Shown: piece by piece, positions 37,503 through 49,564 of the stretch | How positions within the stretch are numbered: position 1 is the first letter of the stretch | How the letters are laid out: each line of letters opens with the position of its first letter | Source: Desulfatiglandales bacterium | GTDB lineage: Bacteria > Desulfobacterota > DSM-4660 > Desulfatiglandales > Desulfatiglandaceae | DNA: 64,000 bases | NCBI GenBank assembly: GCA_963662465.1 | Contig: OY759599.1 | Span: 7,488,001 to 7,552,000 of the forward strand | Direction: 5' to 3' | Made by a program: the position numbers and the translations under genes | The notes under the pieces: generated by a model | Told to the model about the DNA's origin: nothing | Seen by the model: the letters and a program-made list of their open reading frames with translations, nothing else | Database searches by the model: none

Positions 37503-38831
37503 ATGAACTGTCAGTCATTTGATGATGTGAGAAAAATTGTAAAGGAAATGGATATCAGCTTTGTTCAATTCTGGTTTACCGATGTCTTGGGGGTCTTGAA
37601 GAGTTTTGCCATTACCCCTTCCGAACTGGAGGAGGGCATGACCGAAGGGATGGGGTTTGACGGGTCGTCCATTGAGGGGTTTGCGCGAATTCAGGAGAGC
37701 GACATGATCGCCAAACCGGATCCCACCACCTTTCAGCTGGTTCCCTGGCGGAGCGGCGACCGGCCCGTGGCCCGTATGTTCTGCGATGTGATGCATCCGG
37801 ATGGAACGCCTTATGAGGGAGATCCCCGGTATGTACTCAAAAGGCTTCTCAAGAAAATTGCGGAAAAAGGATATACCTTCTACGTGGGTCCTGAAGCGGA
37901 GTATTTTTACTTCAAGGACGACAAATGCACGGAGGTGCTGGATAAGGGCGGTTATTTTGATTCCCGGCCCGTGGATATGGGAAGCGGCCTGAGACGGGAT
38001 ACCATCTTTGCCCTTCAGGACATGGGGATTCAGGTGGAATACAGCCATCACGAGGTGGCGCCCAGTCAGCACGAGATTGACCTTCGGTACCAGGAGGCCC
38101 TGCGTATGGCGGACAACATCATGACTTACCGCCTGGTGGTCAAGGAGATCGCGCGTCAGAACGGCGTTTACGCTACCTTCATGCCCAAACCCATCTTCGG
38201 GGAAAACGGAAGCGGCATGCATGTGCATCAGTCCCTTTTCATTAAGGATAAAAATGCGTTTTACGATGCATCCGATGAATTTAACCTGTCCACCGTTGCC
38301 AGGCAGTATATTGCCGGGTTGATGCGACACGCGCCTGAAATTACGGCTGTTTGCAACCAGTGGGTCAATTCCTATAAACGCCTGGTGCCTGGATACGAGG
38401 CGCCGGTTTACGTATCCTGGGCCCGGCGAAACCGGTCTGCCATGATTCGGGTTCCCATGTACAAACCCGGCAAGGAAAATGCCACCCGGATTGAGTTCAG
38501 GTCTCCTGATCCGGCCTGTAACCCGTACCTCGCTTTTGCGGTAATGCTGGGCGCGGGCCTCAAAGGGATTGAAAACAAATATGAATTGCCGGCCCCCGTG
38601 GAAGAAGACATCTTTGAGATGAACCCGGCCGAAAGAAAGGCCCATGGGATCACCGATCTTCCAGGGAATCTGTATGCCGCCATTCTGACCACGGAAAAGA
38701 GTGAATTAGTTCGGGAAGTGCTGGGGGATCACGTATTCAATAAATTTATTGAAAACAAAATTATTGAATGGGACAAATACCGAACCCATGTGAGCCAGTA
38801 TGAACTGGATAAATATTTGCCCACTTTATAA
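37503..38831 (+). CDS. glnA: Glutamine synthetase type I
   Basis: FDGSSIEG, HHEVAPSQHEI, FMPKPIFGENGSGMH, SYKRLVPGYEAP, RIEFRSPD. Confidence 0.96.
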   Translation: MNCQSFDDVRKIVKEMDISFVQFWFTDVLGVLKSFAITPSELEEGMTEGMGFDGSSIEGFARIQESDMIAKPDPTTFQLVPWRSGDRPVARMFCDVMHPDGTPYEGDPRYVLKRLLKKIAEKGYTFYVGPEAEYFYFKDDKCTEVLDKGGYFDSRPVDMGSGLRRDTIFALQDMGIQVEYSHHEVAPSQHEIDLRYQEALRMADNIMTYRLVVKEIARQNGVYATFMPKPIFGENGSGMHVHQSLFIKDKNAFYDASDEFNLSTVARQYIAGLMRHAPEITAVCNQWVNSYKRLVPGYEAPVYVSWARRNRSAMIRVPMYKPGKENATRIEFRSPDPACNPYLAFAVMLGAGLKGIENKYELPAPVEEDIFEMNPAERKAHGITDLPGNLYAAILTTEKSELVREVLGDHVFNKFIENKIIEWDKYRTHVSQYELDKYLPTL

Positions 38832-38851
38832 TGCTATAACGCTGAAGTTGC

Positions 38852-38887
38852 TCGTCTCCCTCTGTTTTGAGAGGGGGGCGATTTTTA
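38852..38887 (+). terminator. Hairpin, possible weak terminator after glnA
   Basis: TCGTCTCCCTCT...AGAGGGGGGCGA followed by TTTTT. Confidence 0.55.
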
Positions 38888-38932
38888 TCCTAAAACCGCG
38901 GCTTGCCGCATCAGAAAGGATTCATCCAGGAA

Positions 38933-46627: not shown

Positions 46628-46962
46628 AAAAAATAGAGGCCATTATCAAACCGTTTAAACTGGATGAGGTAAAAGACGCGGTACTCAAGCTGGGGGTGAG
46701 CGGCATTACCATGACCGAAGTGAAAGGCTTCGGCCGCCAGAAGGGACATAAGGAAATCTATCGGGGCGCCGAATATGTGGTGGATTTTCTGCCTAAAATA
46801 AGGCTGGAAGTGGTGGTGCCCGCGGATCTGGCGGCCAGGGTAGTGGCAGCCATCAAGGAAAAAGCCTATACCGGTGAGATCGGCGACGGGAAAATATTTA
46901 TCAGCCCCATTGAAAAAGCCATTCGCATTCGAACCGGCGAGGAAGATCGGGACGCCGTTTAA
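46624..46962 (+). CDS. glnB: Nitrogen regulatory protein P-II
   Basis: [44 protein letters not shown]. Confidence 0.93.
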
Positions 46963-46972
46963 GGCGAACATT

Positions 46973-49564
46973 TTGAACGAATCGCAGGCAAGGGTTGCGG
47001 CATTTCTGTCGGAAAGAAATGCCTTGGCCCAAAAAGGGCTTCAATCTGAATCGGGTCTTCGGTTTTCCCATCAATATGCCGATGTGATGGATCGGTTTGT
47101 TCGGGACCTTTTTTTAATGGCTGGATTTCCGCGGCAAAGCCGTTCCGATGGGGAAGGGGCTTTGGCGGTGGCGGCTTTGGGCGGCTATGGGCGGCGGGAA
47201 CTCTGCCTGGGTTCGGATGTGGACCTGATGGTGCTTCATCAGGGCGATCTGACCCCTCACATGAATCAGGTGATTCGTCATGCCCTTTACCCCTTATGGG
47301 ATGCCAAGGTGGAGGTGGGGTATTCCATTGTGACCTATCAGGAGTGCATCCGGCTGGCCATGGAGGATTTTCGAATGCTCACGTCCCTGGTGGACAGCCG
47401 TTTTTTGCTGGGAAGCCGGTCTTTCTACAGACTTTACCAGGAGGCTTTCTGGTCTCGCATGGCCCGTGAAAAAGGGTCGCTTTTGGGCAGGTTTCTGGTT
47501 TCAAGACGGGAACGGGCGGACCGGAACAAGGGAGAGGAATGTTTCGTGGAGCCGGATCTGAAAGAGGGACTGGGCGGTCTTCGGGACATTCATCTTATGG
47601 GCTGGATGGCCCGGATCTGGTTTGATTGCCGGCGCCTGGGCGAGATGAAGCGGTTTGGGGCCTTCAGCCATTTTGAGATACGGAAGTTGGGGATCAGCAG
47701 GAGTTTTCTCCTGAAGATTCGAAACCACCTTCACTGGCTGGCCCATCGCAAGGAAGATACCCTCGGACTTTCCTACCAGGATCAGATTGCGAATATTTTG
47801 GGGTACGGGGATGAACCCCATATCTCCGGCCCTGAAAGGCTTATGCGGGATGTGTATCTTCATTTGAACAGGATTCGCTACCGGCATGAGGAGTTTCAGG
47901 TAAAAATTCTGGATATGATTGATCCATCCCCCATTGAACCGATCCGGGAGGACCTTCCTTCGGAATTTCGGGTGCGAAAGGGGAATGTTGTTCTGGCGGA
48001 TGGGGTGTTGTCCGAAAAGGATCCCCTGGTGATCCTGCGGGGGTTCAAGGAAGCCAATGATCGGGGCCTTTTTCTGGGGTCCGGGTTTATCTGGGAGGCC
48101 AAGGAAATCATCAGCCGGAAAGGGAAAACCATTGCGCGGTCGGCTGAGGGAAAGGTCCTGTTCCTAGACATGATTCTGAAGCCCGAAAATCCGAAAATCA
48201 TACGACTGGCCCTTGAAATCGGGCTCATCGATCTCTTCACCCCGGAATTCAAAAAAATCAGGAACCTGCCCCAGTTCGGCTTTTATCACGAGATGACCGT
48301 GGACCTGCATTCTCTGAGGACTTTGGATGTGATCAGCGAAATTACAAAGGGGGTCTACGATGAAAAATGGTCTGTTTTCAGGTTCGTTTTCGAGGAAATA
48401 GAAAATCCCGACTGCCTTTTTCTGGCGGCCCTGCTGCACGATATCGGGAAAGGATACGGTGAAGATCATTGTGCCCGGGGCCCCCGACTCATCCCCGTGA
48501 TCCTGGCGCGATTGGGATTTGGGAAATCATGCGTTCAAATGGTATCATCTTTGATCCGGCATCACCTCCTGTTGCCAAGGGTGGCTCAGCGCAGGGATCT
48601 TCGGGATGAGAAAACCAGTGTGCAAACGGCCCAGACCGTTCAGGATCCGCAGTTACTGAAAATGCTTTTTCTACTGGCCGTTGCGGACAGTTTTGCCACC
48701 GGGCCCATGGCCCGGAGCGACTGGAAGATCATGCTCCTGGCGGAGCTGTTTCACAAGGTGCAGCGCATATTGGAGAGGGATAATCTGGCGTCGCCCGATG
48801 CCACCCAGAAGATTGAGGGCAGGAAAAAGCGCATTCGGGAAATCTTGCTGCGAGACTTTGAAGAAGACAAAGTCCGGCACCTCATCGATCAGGTTTCCTC
48901 CCGCTATCTTCTCAATACATCGCTTTCGGACATGGTGGTGCATTTTTCTCTGGCGTTGGATCTGGGCGACCTGAAGCACGCCTGGAAACTGGAAAAGCGG
49001 AAAGACGCTTCCGTCACCCGTGTCATTCAGGTGACCTACGACAAGCCCGGGTTGTTCAGCAAGATGGCGGGCGTCTTCACCCTGAACAACATGGCGGTAT
49101 TGTCCGCGAGCATCTTTACTTTGAAAAACGGCCTGGCGTTTGATACCTATGAGGTGACCAATCCGCTGGATGTTTACCTCGAAACGGAGAAATGGGCTAA
49201 AACGGAAAAAGACCTGTATGAAGCGCTGGATGATCGTCTTTTGCTGGATGGTTTGATAAAGGAGAAAAGGGACGCCAAAATGCCGGGGGTCTATGGAAGG
49301 CCGGTCAGGAAAAAGGTCGTCTTAAACAATGAAGAGAGCGATTTTTTTACCCTTATCGAAATTGAGTCCGGCGCCAGATTCGGCCTGCTTTATGACCTGG
49401 CATGCGTGATATTCAGCATGAACCTTGACATTCGAACGGCAAAGGTCAACAGTGACGGTGAAAAGGTGACCGGTGTTTTCTATGTGCGGGATTCGGTTGG
49501 GCAGAAGGTTTATGAGCCCGACATGATTTATGAAACCAAACAGCGTCTGATGGGGGTGCTGTGA
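46973..49564 (+). CDS. glnD: [Protein-PII] uridylyltransferase, copy 2 (start approximate)
   Basis: ALGGYGRREL..SDVDL, EPDLKEGLGGLRD, LLHDIGK, two ACT domains; directly after P-II. Confidence 0.9.
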   Translation: MNESQARVAAFLSERNALAQKGLQSESGLRFSHQYADVMDRFVRDLFLMAGFPRQSRSDGEGALAVAALGGYGRRELCLGSDVDLMVLHQGDLTPHMNQVIRHALYPLWDAKVEVGYSIVTYQECIRLAMEDFRMLTSLVDSRFLLGSRSFYRLYQEAFWSRMAREKGSLLGRFLVSRRERADRNKGEECFVEPDLKEGLGGLRDIHLMGWMARIWFDCRRLGEMKRFGAFSHFEIRKLGISRSFLLKIRNHLHWLAHRKEDTLGLSYQDQIANILGYGDEPHISGPERLMRDVYLHLNRIRYRHEEFQVKILDMIDPSPIEPIREDLPSEFRVRKGNVVLADGVLSEKDPLVILRGFKEANDRGLFLGSGFIWEAKEIISRKGKTIARSAEGKVLFLDMILKPENPKIIRLALEIGLIDLFTPEFKKIRNLPQFGFYHEMTVDLHSLRTLDVISEITKGVYDEKWSVFRFVFEEIENPDCLFLAALLHDIGKGYGEDHCARGPRLIPVILARLGFGKSCVQMVSSLIRHHLLLPRVAQRRDLRDEKTSVQTAQTVQDPQLLKMLFLLAVADSFATGPMARSDWKIMLLAELFHKVQRILERDNLASPDATQKIEGRKKRIREILLRDFEEDKVRHLIDQVSSRYLLNTSLSDMVVHFSLALDLGDLKHAWKLEKRKDASVTRVIQVTYDKPGLFSKMAGVFTLNNMAVLSASIFTLKNGLAFDTYEVTNPLDVYLETEKWAKTEKDLYEALDDRLLLDGLIKEKRDAKMPGVYGRPVRKKVVLNNEESDFFTLIEIESGARFGLLYDLACVIFSMNLDIRTAKVNSDGEKVTGVFYVRDSVGQKVYEPDMIYETKQRLMGVL

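What the first reader, a model, noticed from the sequence alone, without database searches (positions are those of the whole stretch)
37503..49564. glnA-mvhD-metV-metF-split glutamate synthase-PII-glnD: methylene-THF reductase wired into nitrogen assimilation
Seen: one co-oriented run; metV/metF overlap, metF lies 13 bp from the first Glt-like gene, the two FMN-domain genes overlap, and glnB overlaps the amidotransferase gene. No GltD-like NAD(P)H subunit and no HdrABC are present in this run. Known: MetVF with MvhD normally belongs to Wood-Ljungdahl redox complexes; a GlnA-like enzyme plus split Glt domains also form the N-methylglutamate pathway (GmaS/MgsABC). Inference: either methyl-THF oxidation by MetVF/MvhD supplies electrons to this GOGAT, or the cluster is an anaerobic methylamine/C1-nitrogen pathway.
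Basis: partly seen in the sequence, partly recalled or inferred. Interest (0 to 1): 0.75.

Follow-up and report, generated by a model that had tools for sequence, protein, structure and literature searches.

The report
Glutamate synthase wired to folate reductase
Six genes kept together in many anaerobic bacteria join a split glutamate synthase, the enzyme that builds ammonia-derived nitrogen into amino acids, to a methylene-tetrahydrofolate reductase and a small iron-sulfur adaptor, which points to an undescribed way of powering nitrogen assimilation.

Summary
All named genes lie co-oriented at 37503-49564 with the stated overlaps.

- **Conserved core:** the unit is mvhD-metV-metF-gltX1-gltX2-gatGX. 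Of 71 classifiable related loci, 70 have mvhD just upstream of gltX1. MetV lies in the cluster in 61 and metF in 54.
- **A working GOGAT:** GltX2 plus GatGX carry the glutamate synthase motifs. Of 84 sampled genomes with GltX1, 78 lack a canonical GltB.
- **GltX1:** a catalytically degenerate Fe-S/FMN-barrel paralogue, fused to GltX2 in some genomes.
- **Predicted binding:** MvhD is predicted to bind GltX1. Score 0.79, best of 3 controls 0.00; the mark was reached by 116 of 157 solved complexes and 2 of 215 mismatched pairs.
- **Nitrogen setting:** the neighbours are nitrogen genes. GlnA is a true type I enzyme and the genome's only one, with a sigma-54-like promoter.
- **Methylamine/GmaS reading:** not supported.

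Whether methyl-THF is the electron donor remains unproven. Some variants lack MetF, and one genome's only MetF sits in this operon.

No paper found describes this pairing. This scan noted the same arrangement eight times before on other DNA.

The parts
37362..37377 (+). sigma-54-type promoter-like site (CGGCAC-N5-TTGCA) upstream of glnA
   Evidence: One mismatch to TGGCAC-N5-TTGCW (a consensus recalled from memory). It is one of 3 sites with at most 1 mismatch in the window. A like site lies 60-256 nt upstream of glnA in 18 of 26 distinct related loci, against about 0.036 expected per stretch.
37503..38831 (+). glnA, type I glutamine synthetase
   Evidence: PF00120 and PF03951. TIGR00653 gives 544 bits against a cut-off of 429; TIGR03105 gives 322 against 469.6. 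It is the only tblastn match in the genome. The start at 37503 lies behind GGGAGG.
38852..38888 (+). terminator-like hairpin plus T run after glnA
   Evidence: 12-pair stem with 7 G-C pairs, the strongest of the region. The total number of such sites in the region is not above the shuffles (20 against 19.0).
38933..39355 (+). mvhD, small [2Fe-2S]-type adaptor protein
   Evidence: PF02662, E 5.9e-23. Four invariant Cys (C14, C43, C68, C73) in 37 sequences. Predicted to bind GltX1: score 0.79, best of 3 controls 0.00; the mark was reached by 116 of 157 solved complexes and 2 of 215 mismatched pairs; runs agree in at least 82% of contacts; partner pLDDT at least 82. The longest ORF starts at TTG 38903.
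39404..40072 (+). metV, Fe-S/zinc subunit of MetVF-type methylene-THF reductase
   Evidence: PF12225, E 1.1e-36. It is one of five MetV homologues in the genome.
40069..41001 (+). metF, flavin subunit of methylene-THF reductase
   Evidence: PF02219 over its full length, 132 bits. It aligns to Thermus MTHFR with the Glu of 'ECGPP', the Asp of 'LSGD' and the Gln of 'QTQ' kept.
41015..42406 (+). gltX1, degenerate paralogue of the glutamate synthase FMN subunit (ferredoxin domain plus TIM barrel plus Cys motif)
   Evidence: Only positions 259-368 of PF01645 match. 27% identical to GltX2 and lacks its 'KYAQGAKPGLGG' region. Invariant: 8 Cys of the ferredoxin domain, C378/C381/C384/C390, and GG..EH..K..GAD. 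Model pLDDT 81.6; nearest folds are FMN TIM barrels.
42339..43889 (+). gltX2, archaeal-type glutamate synthase FMN/Fe-S subunit with an N-terminal ferredoxin domain
   Evidence: PF01645, E 1.2e-91. It aligns to A. brasilense GltS alpha 853-1169, E 6.8e-53, and carries a CxxCxxCx5C motif.
43976..46627 (+). gatGX, fusion of an Ntn glutamine amidotransferase, a helical middle region and a GXGXG beta-helix domain
   Evidence: PF13522 and PF01493. Invariant EGGCGV (Cys35 behind a 34-residue leader), HQRYPT, HNGDFAN and TDTE in 41 sequences. Model pLDDT 81.9; the best fold matches are glutamate synthase large subunits (7mfm_G, E 1.8e-12).
46624..46962 (+). glnB, PII signal protein
   Evidence: PF00543, E 3.9e-33. 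4-nt overlap with gatGX.
46874..49564 (+). glnD, PII uridylyltransferase (start uncertain; the longest ORF overlaps glnB)
   Evidence: TIGR01693, 582 bits against a cut-off of 519.
49565..51739 (.). low-GC insertion of toxin-antitoxin genes between glnD and gltB (context, not part of the system)
   Evidence: GC 0.44-0.48. PhdYeFM, HicB-like and Unstab_antitox domains. The insertion is missing in G010, G004 and G007, where gltB follows glnD directly.
51740..57722 (+). canonical gltB-gltD (NADPH-type glutamate synthase), a second GOGAT next door
   Evidence: gltB: NF008730, 1738 bits, with all four GltB Pfam domains. gltD: Fer4_20 plus Pyr_redox_2.

Best explanation
The run is a nitrogen-assimilation block. 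Its centre is a six-gene module, mvhD-metV-metF-gltX1-gltX2-gatGX. I read this module as one flavo-iron-sulfur complex: a split ('archaeal-type') glutamate synthase whose electron-input side is not a GltD subunit.

**Proposed working**
1. GatGX hydrolyses glutamine at its N-terminal nucleophile Cys, which is exposed after removal of a 34-residue leader.
2. Ammonia passes to GltX2, where 2-oxoglutarate is aminated and the imine is reduced by FMN.
3. That FMN is recharged one electron at a time through the [4Fe-4S] clusters of GltX2 and of its degenerate paralogue GltX1.
4. GltX1 no longer has a substrate site. It serves as the docking and wiring subunit for MvhD ([2Fe-2S]).
5. MvhD links onward to MetV (Fe-S) and MetF (flavin).

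The complex thus connects the methyl-/methylene-THF couple (E0' -200 mV) with glutamate synthesis. This genome has acetyl-CoA synthase and three further Hdr-linked MvhD-MetVF sets. Here the likeliest flow is from 5-methyl-THF to GOGAT, with the ferredoxin-like domains as a second port to a soluble carrier.

**Shown:** gene content, motif conservation, conserved order, fusion of GltX1 with GltX2, replacement of canonical GltB in most carriers, and the nitrogen-gene neighbourhood.

**Predicted:** MvhD-GltX1 contact.

**Inferred:** that MetVF is part of the complex, and the direction of electron flow.
For: **Conserved order**
- Among the best 80 of 577 related loci in species-representative genomes, 71 could be classified.
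- 50 are mvhD-metV-metF-gltX1, 6 are mvhD-metV-gltX1, 5 have metV(-metF) just after gatGX, 9 are mvhD-gltX1 only, and 1 is other.
- gltX2 and gatGX follow in 61 of 61 loci with enough downstream DNA.

**Spread**
- A GltX1 orthologue (E<=1e-60) occurs in 84 of 301 sampled genomes of the phylum, 54 of 199 genera.
- Titles of related loci also name Nitrospirota, Spirochaetota and Latescibacterota.

**GOGAT competence**
- GltX2 aligns to the GltS alpha FMN domain.
- GatGX keeps Cys35, HNGDFAN and TDTE invariant, and its model matches GltS large subunits best.

**It is the working GOGAT in most carriers**
- Only 6 of the 84 GltX1 genomes also have a canonical GltB central domain (PF04898, E<=1e-45). 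Among the 217 genomes without GltX1 the figure is 58. I collated these by hand.
- In 5 of 5 genomes checked, the operon holds the only GXGXG hit over the cut-off and the only strong PF01645 hit.

**GltX1 and GltX2 act together**
- Single ORFs of about 975-1070 aa cover both in L096, L105, L109, L115, L116 and L123-L125, and in nine genomes.

**MvhD-GltX1 binding**
- Complex prediction score 0.79, best of 3 controls 0.00. The mark was reached by 116 of 157 solved complexes and 2 of 215 mismatched pairs.
- Runs agree in at least 82% of contacts, and partner pLDDT is at least 82. My own alignments were used, so these counts hold only roughly.
- The interface joins MvhD residues 39-46 (around Cys43) to the GltX1 Cys motif 381-389 and its ferredoxin domain.

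**GltX1/GltX2 take the place of HdrA**
- The genome's other three MvhD-MetVF sets each sit beside an HdrA-like flavoprotein. This set has GltX1/GltX2 in that place.

**MetF is likely active and of a dedicated lineage**
- MetF keeps its catalytic Glu/Asp/Gln positions.
- In a quick tree, 53 of 64 Glt-linked MetF rows form one group (SH-aLRT 93) that excludes the genome's own Hdr-linked paralogues.

**Nitrogen setting**
- A sigma-54-like site lies before glnA here and in 18 of 26 relatives.
- glnB-glnD are overlapped onto the operon. amtB, glnB, sigma-54 activators or carAB flank variants.

**Thermodynamics**
- The methylene/methyl-THF couple is at -200 mV (PMC8760232, passage read). That is negative enough for reductive amination of 2-oxoglutarate; my figure for that couple is recalled, about -120 mV.

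**Weak hint of expression**
- Contigs from an RNA library, about 87% identical, bridge glnA-mvhD and metV-metF.
Against: - **MetF is not universal.** Of 71 classifiable loci, 6 keep MetV but no MetF, and 9 have neither within 2.6 kb. The GOGAT core must therefore be able to draw electrons from something else.
- **G262 argues against a dedicated donor.** In G262 (99% complete) the operon's MetF is the only PF02219 match, although acetyl-CoA synthase is present. There MetF must carry the whole C1 flux, which cannot all end in glutamate.
- **No strict tie to the Wood-Ljungdahl pathway.** G074, a single-contig genome, has the operon with MetV close upstream but no acetyl-CoA synthase match. Only 70 of the 84 carriers have ACS, against 131 of 217 non-carriers (hand-collated).
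- **glnA may be a separate unit.** It is followed by a terminator-like hairpin.
- **A second GOGAT exists here.** This genome also has a canonical gltBD next door, so the split enzyme is not essential here.
- **No direct evidence.** I have no biochemical data and no transcript data for this organism. The complex score is a model's confidence, not a measurement.
Confidence: 0.55

Rival explanations
1. Shared-donor model. The Fe-S chain of MvhD/GltX1/GltX2 takes electrons from reduced ferredoxin or another low-potential carrier through the ferredoxin-like domains. It delivers them to two acceptor flavins: MetF (methylene-THF to methyl-THF) and GltX2 (glutamate synthesis). MetVF and GOGAT are then two heads on one electron-input hub, and methyl-THF is a product, not a donor.
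For: - Purified MetVF-type enzymes use reduced ferredoxin, not NAD(P)H, in vitro (PMC8760232, abstract and passages).
- Both GltX proteins carry 2x[4Fe-4S]-type ferredoxin domains.
- The core occurs without MetF or without MetVF in 15 of 71 loci.
- In G262 the operon's MetF is the only MTHFR found. In G074 the operon persists without acetyl-CoA synthase.
Against: - It gives no reason why two unrelated acceptor enzymes should be kept in one operon across phyla.
- This genome already has a type I MetF and three other MetVF sets for methylene-THF reduction.
- Ferredoxin as donor for methylene-THF reduction wastes energy. The authors of PMC8760232 argue so for acetogens.
Confidence: 0.25
2. Co-regulation only. 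MvhD-MetVF and the split GOGAT are separate enzymes that share an operon because both are needed during growth on ammonium (methyl groups and glutamate). There is no electron transfer between them.
For: - MetVF is missing from the cluster in some lineages or lies at its other end.
- Glt-linked MetF rows fall into at least three groups in the quick tree, whose backbone is unresolved. That pattern is compatible with repeated, loose association.
Against: - MvhD, whose only known role is as an electron-transfer adaptor, stays directly upstream of gltX1 in 70 of 71 loci, even where MetVF is absent.
- MvhD is predicted to bind GltX1: score 0.79, best of 3 controls 0.00; the mark was reached by 116 of 157 solved complexes and 2 of 215 mismatched pairs; runs agree in at least 82% of contacts; partner pLDDT at least 82.
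- Genes are overlapped or 13 nt apart.
- No GltD, FrhB or other donor subunit is encoded for the GOGAT core.
Confidence: 0.12
3. Anaerobic methylamine / N-methylglutamate pathway. GlnA acts as gamma-glutamylmethylamide synthetase, the split Glt proteins act as N-methylglutamate synthase, and MetVF handles the released C1 unit.
For: There is a formal resemblance of parts: a GS-like enzyme, three GltB-domain modules and a folate enzyme.
Against: - GlnA passes TIGR00653 and fails TIGR03105. It is the only GlnA homologue in the genome and sits behind a sigma-54-like site conserved in relatives.
- glnA adjacency is not part of the conserved core.
- Both FMN-type subunits carry ferredoxin domains and come with MvhD, which implies external electrons. 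By my recollection, N-methylglutamate synthase does not need external electrons.
- No sarcosine-oxidase-like dehydrogenase genes appear among the ORFs annotated from 23.6 to 63.6 kb.
- In 78 of 84 carriers no other GltB is found, so the operon has to supply glutamate synthase.
Confidence: 0.02
4. Electron-bifurcating variant. A flavin of the complex (MetF or the substrate-less GltX1 barrel) splits the electron pair of methyl-THF. One electron goes downhill to glutamate synthesis and one uphill to ferredoxin.
For: - GltX1 keeps the FMN-phosphate-type motif (GG..EH..K..GAD) and three cluster motifs invariant, yet has no substrate region.
- Related ten-gene forms add HdrCBA, as in L082 and in earlier scan notes.
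- Organisms that oxidise methyl-THF at -200 mV lack an obvious acceptor. That last point is established knowledge, which I recall rather than tested.
Against: - No HdrA-type bifurcating flavoprotein is encoded in this six-gene form.
- FMN binding by GltX1 is not shown.
- Nothing in the sequence tells bifurcation from simple wiring.
Confidence: 0.06

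Closest known systems
Split ('archaeal-type') glutamate synthase, with separate amidotransferase, ferredoxin-fused FMN and GXGXG proteins. This includes the F420-dependent forms clustered with FrhB paralogues (mentioned in PMC9012536, passages read).
   Same: - GltX2 is a roughly 500-aa ferredoxin-domain plus PF01645 protein.
- The amidotransferase and GXGXG parts are encoded apart from it.
- There is no GltB central domain and no GltD.
- As in the F420-linked forms, the electron-input module is swapped.
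   Different: - The amidotransferase and GXGXG parts are fused into one 883-aa protein with a helical middle region.
- A second, catalytically degenerate FMN-subunit paralogue (GltX1) is always present.
- The partner genes are MvhD and MetVF, not FrhB.
- The three-protein make-up of the archaeal enzyme is recalled from memory, not tested here.
Bacterial NADPH-dependent glutamate synthase GltBD (A. brasilense, PDB 1ea0/6s6s; B. subtilis 7mfm)
   Same: - The FMN domain chemistry and the Cys motif next to the flavin.
- An Ntn amidotransferase and a beta-helix domain; the GatGX model matches these structures best.
   Different: - No central domain and no NADPH-reading GltD subunit.
- Four Cys instead of three at the cluster site.
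- The domains are spread over three proteins.
- A canonical GltBD lies 5 kb downstream in this genome for comparison.
Type IV methylene-THF reductase MetFV-HdrCBA-MvhD of Moorella thermoacetica, and type II MetVF of clostridia (classification in PMC8760232)
   Same: - MetV plus MetF with MvhD as neighbour.
- MetF is of the non-NAD(P)H type.
- The genome's other three sets follow the Hdr-linked pattern.
   Different: - Here no HdrA, HdrB or HdrC is present.
- The place of the Hdr flavoprotein is taken by GltX1/GltX2/GatGX.
- This partner set fits none of types I-IV as listed in that paper.
Ferredoxin-dependent glutamate synthase (Synechocystis, PDB 1ofd/1llw)
   Same: A GltD-less GOGAT fed one electron at a time by an iron-sulfur carrier. 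It appears among the fold matches of GatGX and the sequence matches of GltX2.
   Different: It is a single 1500-aa chain with a central domain. It has no built-in ferredoxin domains, no MvhD and no MetVF.
N-methylglutamate pathway (GmaS, MgsABC)
   Same: A GS-family enzyme lies next to three GltB-derived modules.
   Different: - GlnA fails the TIGR03105 model.
- Redox partner proteins are present.
- The setting is nitrogen regulation.

Membership tests
Glutamate synthase (GOGAT), any type | Ntn (class II) glutamine amidotransferase with a catalytic N-terminal Cys | tested here: met
   Cys35 in EGGCGV, HQRYPT, HNGDFAN and TDTE are invariant in 41 sequences. PF13522, E 2.8e-6. Fold matches to GltS, PurF and GlmS glutaminase domains. 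The roles of these motifs are recalled.
Glutamate synthase (GOGAT), any type | FMN-binding synthase domain (PF01645) with an adjacent Fe-S Cys motif | tested here: met
   GltX2: PF01645, 308 bits, positions 64-368 of 369. It aligns to GltS alpha 853-1169 including 'QGAKPG.GG' and the Cys motif.
Glutamate synthase (GOGAT), any type | GXGXG beta-helix domain (PF01493) | tested here: met
   GatGX residues 647-809, 55.4 bits against a cut-off of 32.5.
Glutamate synthase (GOGAT), any type | Formation of two glutamate from glutamine plus 2-oxoglutarate plus two electrons | not testable with these tools
   Indirect only: the operon holds the sole recognisable GOGAT genes in 5 of 5 genomes checked, and 78 of 84 carriers lack canonical GltB.
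NADPH-dependent GltBD | GltD-type NAD(P)H/FAD subunit and GltB central domain | tested here: not met
   No Pyr_redox_2/Fer4_20 protein lies in 37503-49564. PF04898 gives only a weak secondary hit on GltX2 (E 2e-5). A separate canonical gltBD lies at 51740-57722.
MetVF-type methylene-THF reductase | MetF (PF02219) with an adjacent MetV (PF12225) | tested here: met
   The two genes overlap by 4 nt.
MetVF-type methylene-THF reductase | Catalytic and folate-site residues of MetF kept | tested here: met
   Glu21, the Asp of 'LSGD' and the Gln of 'QTQ' align with Thermus MTHFR 1v93. Their roles are recalled from E. coli MetF.
Type IV MTHFR (MetFV-HdrCBA-MvhD) | HdrA, HdrB and HdrC encoded with MetFV and MvhD | tested here: not met
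   No Hdr domains occur in the run. They are present at the genome's other MetVF loci and in the variant locus L082.
N-methylglutamate pathway (GmaS/MgsABC) | GS homologue of the gamma-glutamylmethylamide synthetase type | tested here: not met
   TIGR03105, 322 bits against a cut-off of 469.6; TIGR00653, 544 against 429. Reading TIGR03105 as the model that covers GmaS-type enzymes is my recollection.
N-methylglutamate pathway (GmaS/MgsABC) | FMN subunit groups with MgsC rather than with GltB | not tested
PII/GlnD nitrogen signalling | PII protein and uridylyltransferase | tested here: met
   PF00543. TIGR01693, 582 bits against a cut-off of 519.

The most novel reading that the evidence does not exclude
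The complex is an electron-bifurcating methyl-THF:ferredoxin/2-oxoglutarate oxidoreductase. The strongly downhill synthesis of glutamate pulls the otherwise awkward oxidation of methyl-THF (-200 mV) and pushes the second electron up to ferredoxin. The substrate-less GltX1 flavin barrel or the MetF flavin would be the splitting site. Nitrogen assimilation would then double as an energy-saving outlet of the reverse Wood-Ljungdahl pathway. The unknown partner of MetVF-type reductases would be, in these bacteria, a glutamate synthase.
Probability: 0.07. Interest if true: 0.95.

Novelty: new variant of a known kind. Interest (0 to 1): 0.72.

Why it matters
Glutamate synthase is the main entry of nitrogen into biomass, yet the electron donor of the GltD-less, split enzymes of strict anaerobes is poorly known.

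MetVF-type methylene-THF reductases have no agreed physiological redox partner. The review read here calls this an energetic dilemma (PMC8760232).

A conserved operon that ties the two together turns both questions into one purification and assay. The operon is present in 84 of 301 sampled genomes of this phylum and in other phyla. In most carriers it is the only GOGAT found.

If methyl-THF, or a carrier shared with MetF, feeds GOGAT, then carbon-one and nitrogen metabolism are coupled at the level of a single enzyme. That would apply to sulfate reducers and syntrophs that drive anoxic carbon turnover.

This window adds a natural comparison. The same chromosome stretch carries the split enzyme and a canonical NADPH enzyme side by side, with PII and GlnD between them.

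Tried and rejected
- **Promoter and terminator scans.** Sigma-70-like promoters (17 found, 13.1 +/- 3.4 expected) and terminators (20 found, 19.0 +/- 4.4 expected) were not above chance for the region. Only the hairpin after glnA stands out. No sigma-70-like site was listed in the glnA-mvhD gap.
- **Sigma-54 site alone.** With up to 2 mismatches the pattern is not enriched in the window (27 found, 32.5 expected). Its weight comes from position and from relatives. Upstream of mvhD only 10 of 79 loci have such a site.
- **Sequencing runs.** Three of the four runs laid were of unrecorded kind. The one RNA library (X9) holds only a relative at about 87% identity, as contigs. It cannot show a transcript, a start or a level, and parts without cover mean nothing.
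- **Foldseek on the GltX1 model.** It gave only generic FMN TIM barrels with TM 0.33-0.49. This does not tell whether GltX1 stands for the GltB central domain.
- **BLASTP of GatGX against the window's own GltB.** Only the GXGXG part aligned.
- **Careful MetF tree.** The search did not finish in the time allowed, so only the quick tree is reported.
- **A strict link between the operon and acetyl-CoA synthase.** Not found: 14 of 84 carriers had no match.
- **Papers that looked promising in listings but were not.** The GapMind 2026 paper concerns N-succinylglutamate synthase. The D. autotrophicum genome paper mentions only an Hdr/GltD-like fusion. PMC5947290 and PMC6085437 mention glutamate synthase only in passing.
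- **Phrase search.** 'archaeal-type glutamate synthase' gave 0 papers.
- **Not done.** No phylogeny of the FMN subunit against MgsC, because no Mgs sequence was at hand.

Full report
**What is there.**
- The window is a 64-kb piece of an 8.16-Mb single-contig genome. Relatives carry titles such as Desulfatiglandales and Desulfobacteraceae.
- On the + strand between 37.4 and 49.6 kb lie glnA, mvhD, metV, metF, two paralogous genes of the glutamate synthase FMN-subunit type (here gltX1 and gltX2), a fused amidotransferase/GXGXG gene (gatGX), glnB and glnD.
metV/metF overlap by 4 nt. A 13-nt gap lies before gltX1. gltX1/gltX2 overlap. gatGX/glnB overlap by 4 nt.
- Three points were not in the finding:
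  - A canonical gltB-gltD pair follows glnD. It is separated only by a 2.2-kb low-GC island of toxin-antitoxin genes that same-genus relatives lack.
  - glnA is followed by the one strong terminator-like hairpin of the region.
  - The wider window is a glutamine hub, holding a second glnD paralogue, glmS, carA, carB and purF.

**The conserved unit.**
- I searched related genomes with GltX1, the most distinctive protein.
- In 41 relatives it was found in 22 of 24 genomes of the same family. In 20 fetched stretches the block mvhD-metV-metF-gltX1-gltX2-gatGX recurred, while glnA, glnB and glnD came and went.
- Of these 80, 9 had too little upstream DNA to classify. Of the other 71:
  - 50 are mvhD-metV-metF-gltX1;
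  - 6 are mvhD-metV-gltX1 without metF;
  - 5 have metV (4 of them with metF; 1 is cut) right after gatGX;
  - 9 have mvhD-gltX1 with no metVF within 2.6 kb;
  - 1 has no mvhD upstream.
- gltX2 and gatGX follow in 61 of 61 loci with at least 4.6 kb downstream.
- The constant set is therefore MvhD + GltX1 + GltX2 + GatGX. MetV(F) is a frequent, not universal, addition.
- One variant (L082) continues with hdrC-hdrB-hdrA-mvhD. This matches the ten-gene form that earlier notes of this scan describe.

**Is it a glutamate synthase?**
- GltX2 matches PF01645 over nearly its full length. It aligns to residues 853-1169 of the A. brasilense large subunit, including the 'QGAKPG.GG' stretch and the Cys motif beside the flavin. 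Here that motif has four Cys (CxxCxxCx5C) rather than three.
- GatGX is very divergent in sequence. Even so, in 41 orthologues the Cys of EGGCGV, which lies behind a 34-residue leader, is invariant, as are HQRYPT, HNGDFAN and TDTE.
- Its AlphaFold model (pLDDT 81.9, pTM 0.86) finds glutamate synthase large subunits as best matches. PurF and GlmS follow.
- I sampled 301 genomes of the phylum, all at least 90% complete:
  - 84 have a GltX1 orthologue;
  - 64 have a canonical GltB central domain at E<=1e-45;
  - only 6 have both, by hand collation of the two tables. So 78 of 84 carriers show no canonical GltB.
- In 5 of 5 carriers checked, the operon holds the only GXGXG match over the cut-off and the only strong PF01645 match.
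- I take this as good indirect evidence that the operon is those organisms' working GOGAT. These genomes are related to one another, so the counts overstate independence.

**What GltX1 is.**
- GltX1 is 27% identical to GltX2 and has the same ferredoxin-like N-terminus with eight invariant Cys. It also shares the same C-terminal half of the barrel, with GG..EH..K..GAD and CxxCxxCx5C invariant.
- The part that in GltX2 holds the substrate loop is replaced.
- Its model (pLDDT 81.6) is an FMN-type TIM barrel.
- The most conserved stretch of the protein, residues 113-155, is modelled with pLDDT below 50. That would fit a segment that folds only against a partner.
- In several genomes GltX1 and GltX2 are one ORF of about 975-1070 aa, so they work together.
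- Whether GltX1 still binds FMN is open.

**The link to MvhD and MetVF.**
- This genome has four mvhD-metV-metF sets. The other three each lie next to an HdrA-like flavoprotein:
  - HdrCBA with NuoEF-like genes;
  - a 1403-aa GltD/HdrA-like fusion;
  - a 912-aa HdrA-like protein.
- Only the set in this window has GltX1/GltX2/GatGX in that position.
  - Score 0.79, best of three controls 0.00. The mark was reached by 116 of 157 solved complexes and 2 of 215 mismatched pairs.
  - The three runs agree in at least 82% of contacts, and partner pLDDT is at least 82.
  - My own alignments were used, so the calibration holds only roughly.
  - The predicted interface puts the MvhD loop around invariant Cys43 against the GltX1 Cys motif (381-389) and its ferredoxin domain. 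That is what an electron-transfer contact would look like.
  - I know of no solved complex of this kind (recalled), but the score remains a model's confidence.
- MetF keeps the Glu, Asp and Gln positions known from studied MTHFRs.
- In a quick maximum-likelihood tree of 70 MetF rows, 53 Glt-linked rows form one group (SH-aLRT 93) that excludes this genome's Hdr-linked paralogues.
  - Smaller Glt-linked groups go with the fused GltX1-X2 type and with the 'metVF downstream' type.
  - The backbone is unresolved, several branches are long and the careful search did not finish.

**Nitrogen control.**
- GlnA passes the type I model and fails the type III/GmaS-type model. It is the only GlnA homologue found by tblastn in the genome.
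- A sigma-54-like site (one mismatch) lies 126 nt before its start.
- A like site lies upstream of the neighbouring glnA in 18 of 26 distinct relatives, where about 0.036 per stretch is expected.
- Upstream of mvhD such sites are rarer: 10 of 79 loci, with 0.027 expected per stretch.
- Variant loci are flanked by amtB, glnB, GAF-sigma-54 activators or carAB.
- An RNA-library contig from a relative spans glnA into mvhD, and another spans metV/metF. This is only a hint.

**How it most likely works, and what speaks against it.**
- I read the six proteins as one complex in which a chain of Fe-S clusters joins two substrate flavins, MetF and GltX2.
- The methylene/methyl-THF couple lies at -200 mV (PMC8760232, passage read). 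That is low enough to drive reductive amination of 2-oxoglutarate; my value for that couple is recalled.
- The organism has acetyl-CoA synthase, so methyl-THF is at hand.
- Electrons at -200 mV cannot reduce NAD(P)+ or ferredoxin without extra energy. Passing them straight to GOGAT would spare NADPH.
- Three things speak against a strict 'methyl-THF is the donor' reading:
  - 15 of 71 loci lack metF beside the core.
  - G262 has acetyl-CoA synthase, yet its only MTHFR match is the operon's MetF.
  - G074 has the operon with MetV but no acetyl-CoA synthase match.
- Only 70 of the 84 carriers have acetyl-CoA synthase, against 131 of 217 non-carriers.
- These facts require a further port to a general carrier, most simply ferredoxin through the ferredoxin-like domains. 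They keep the shared-donor rival alive.

**Comparison with what is known.**
- The parts are known families. GltX2 and GatGX meet the sequence criteria of glutamate synthase. MetVF meets those of the MetVF-type reductase.
- The combination fits neither NADPH-GltBD (no GltD, no central domain) nor single-chain Fd-GOGAT.
- It also fits none of the four MTHFR types listed in PMC8760232.
- The nearest concept in print that I saw is the clustering of GOGAT subunits with FrhB paralogues in archaea (F420-dependent glutamate synthase, PMC9012536, passages).
- Seven full-text searches turned up no paper describing MetVF or MvhD together with glutamate synthase as a unit. I read passages in the candidates.
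- Subscription journals and supplements were not covered.
- Earlier agents of this scan reached the same reading on eight other genomes. Those are unchecked notes, not independent evidence.

**Verdict.** It is a new variant of known kinds. The direction of electron flow is open, and the methylamine alternative is rejected.

Noticed in passing
window 49565-51739: A 2.2-kb low-GC (0.44-0.48) island of small toxin-antitoxin genes (PhdYeFM antitoxin, HicB-like, 'addiction module component', and apparent fragments of partner toxins). It is inserted between glnD and gltB. In relatives G010, G004 and G007, gltB follows glnD within about 50 nt.
   Followed up: partly
window 23599-26241 (-) and 26316-26331 (-): A second GlnD paralogue, 32% identical to the operon's GlnD. 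A perfect TGGCAC-N5-TTGCA sigma-54 consensus lies just upstream of its start on the same strand. Relatives keep this paralogue divergently upstream of glnA.
   Followed up: partly
window 23.6-63.6 kb: The window is a glutamine hub: glnD2, glmS (26505-28331), glnA, the split GOGAT, glnB, glnD, gltBD, carA (57719-58858), carB (58911-62150) and purF (62206-63612). All of them make, sense or use glutamine.
   Followed up: partly
window 28610-37056: Between glmS and glnA lie two tandem YhgA-like transposase genes (32185-33243 and 33325-34371) and two proteins with an Lcl C-terminal domain, one of them with a caspase domain (35344-37056). This looks like inserted material. In same-genus relatives the glnD paralogue lies only about 2.5 kb from glnA.
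   Followed up: no
GltX1 residues 113-155 (window 41351-41479): The most conserved stretch of GltX1 (PVSGAGY..GFD..WTDMSEIVRPTRDGIHGREYIST, nearly all invariant in 37 sequences) is modelled with pLDDT below 50. It has no counterpart in GltX2. Its role is unexplained.
   Followed up: partly
G000:C1 5062000-5082000, 7166000-7186000, 7192000-7212000 (L118-L120): Three further mvhD-metV-metF sets lie in the same genome, each beside a different HdrA-like flavoprotein. One of them also has NuoE/NuoF-like genes and an aldehyde:ferredoxin oxidoreductase. The genome also has a fused MetF-MetV gene (L121) and a type I MetF at C1:2972561-2973400.
   Followed up: partly
L080:5312-6889, L102:4179-5822; G074:C1:2495112, G085:C10:117277, G119:C1:351383: A third kind of protein, about 520-550 aa, matches only the middle of PF01645 (positions about 160-303). 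It lies upstream of glnA in some variant loci and occurs elsewhere in other carriers. Its function is unknown.
   Followed up: no
L122 (G262:C65:1-14143): In G262 the neighbour upstream of mvhD is a glnB plus a GS homologue only 41% identical to this GlnA. The operon's MetF is the genome's only MTHFR match.
   Followed up: partly
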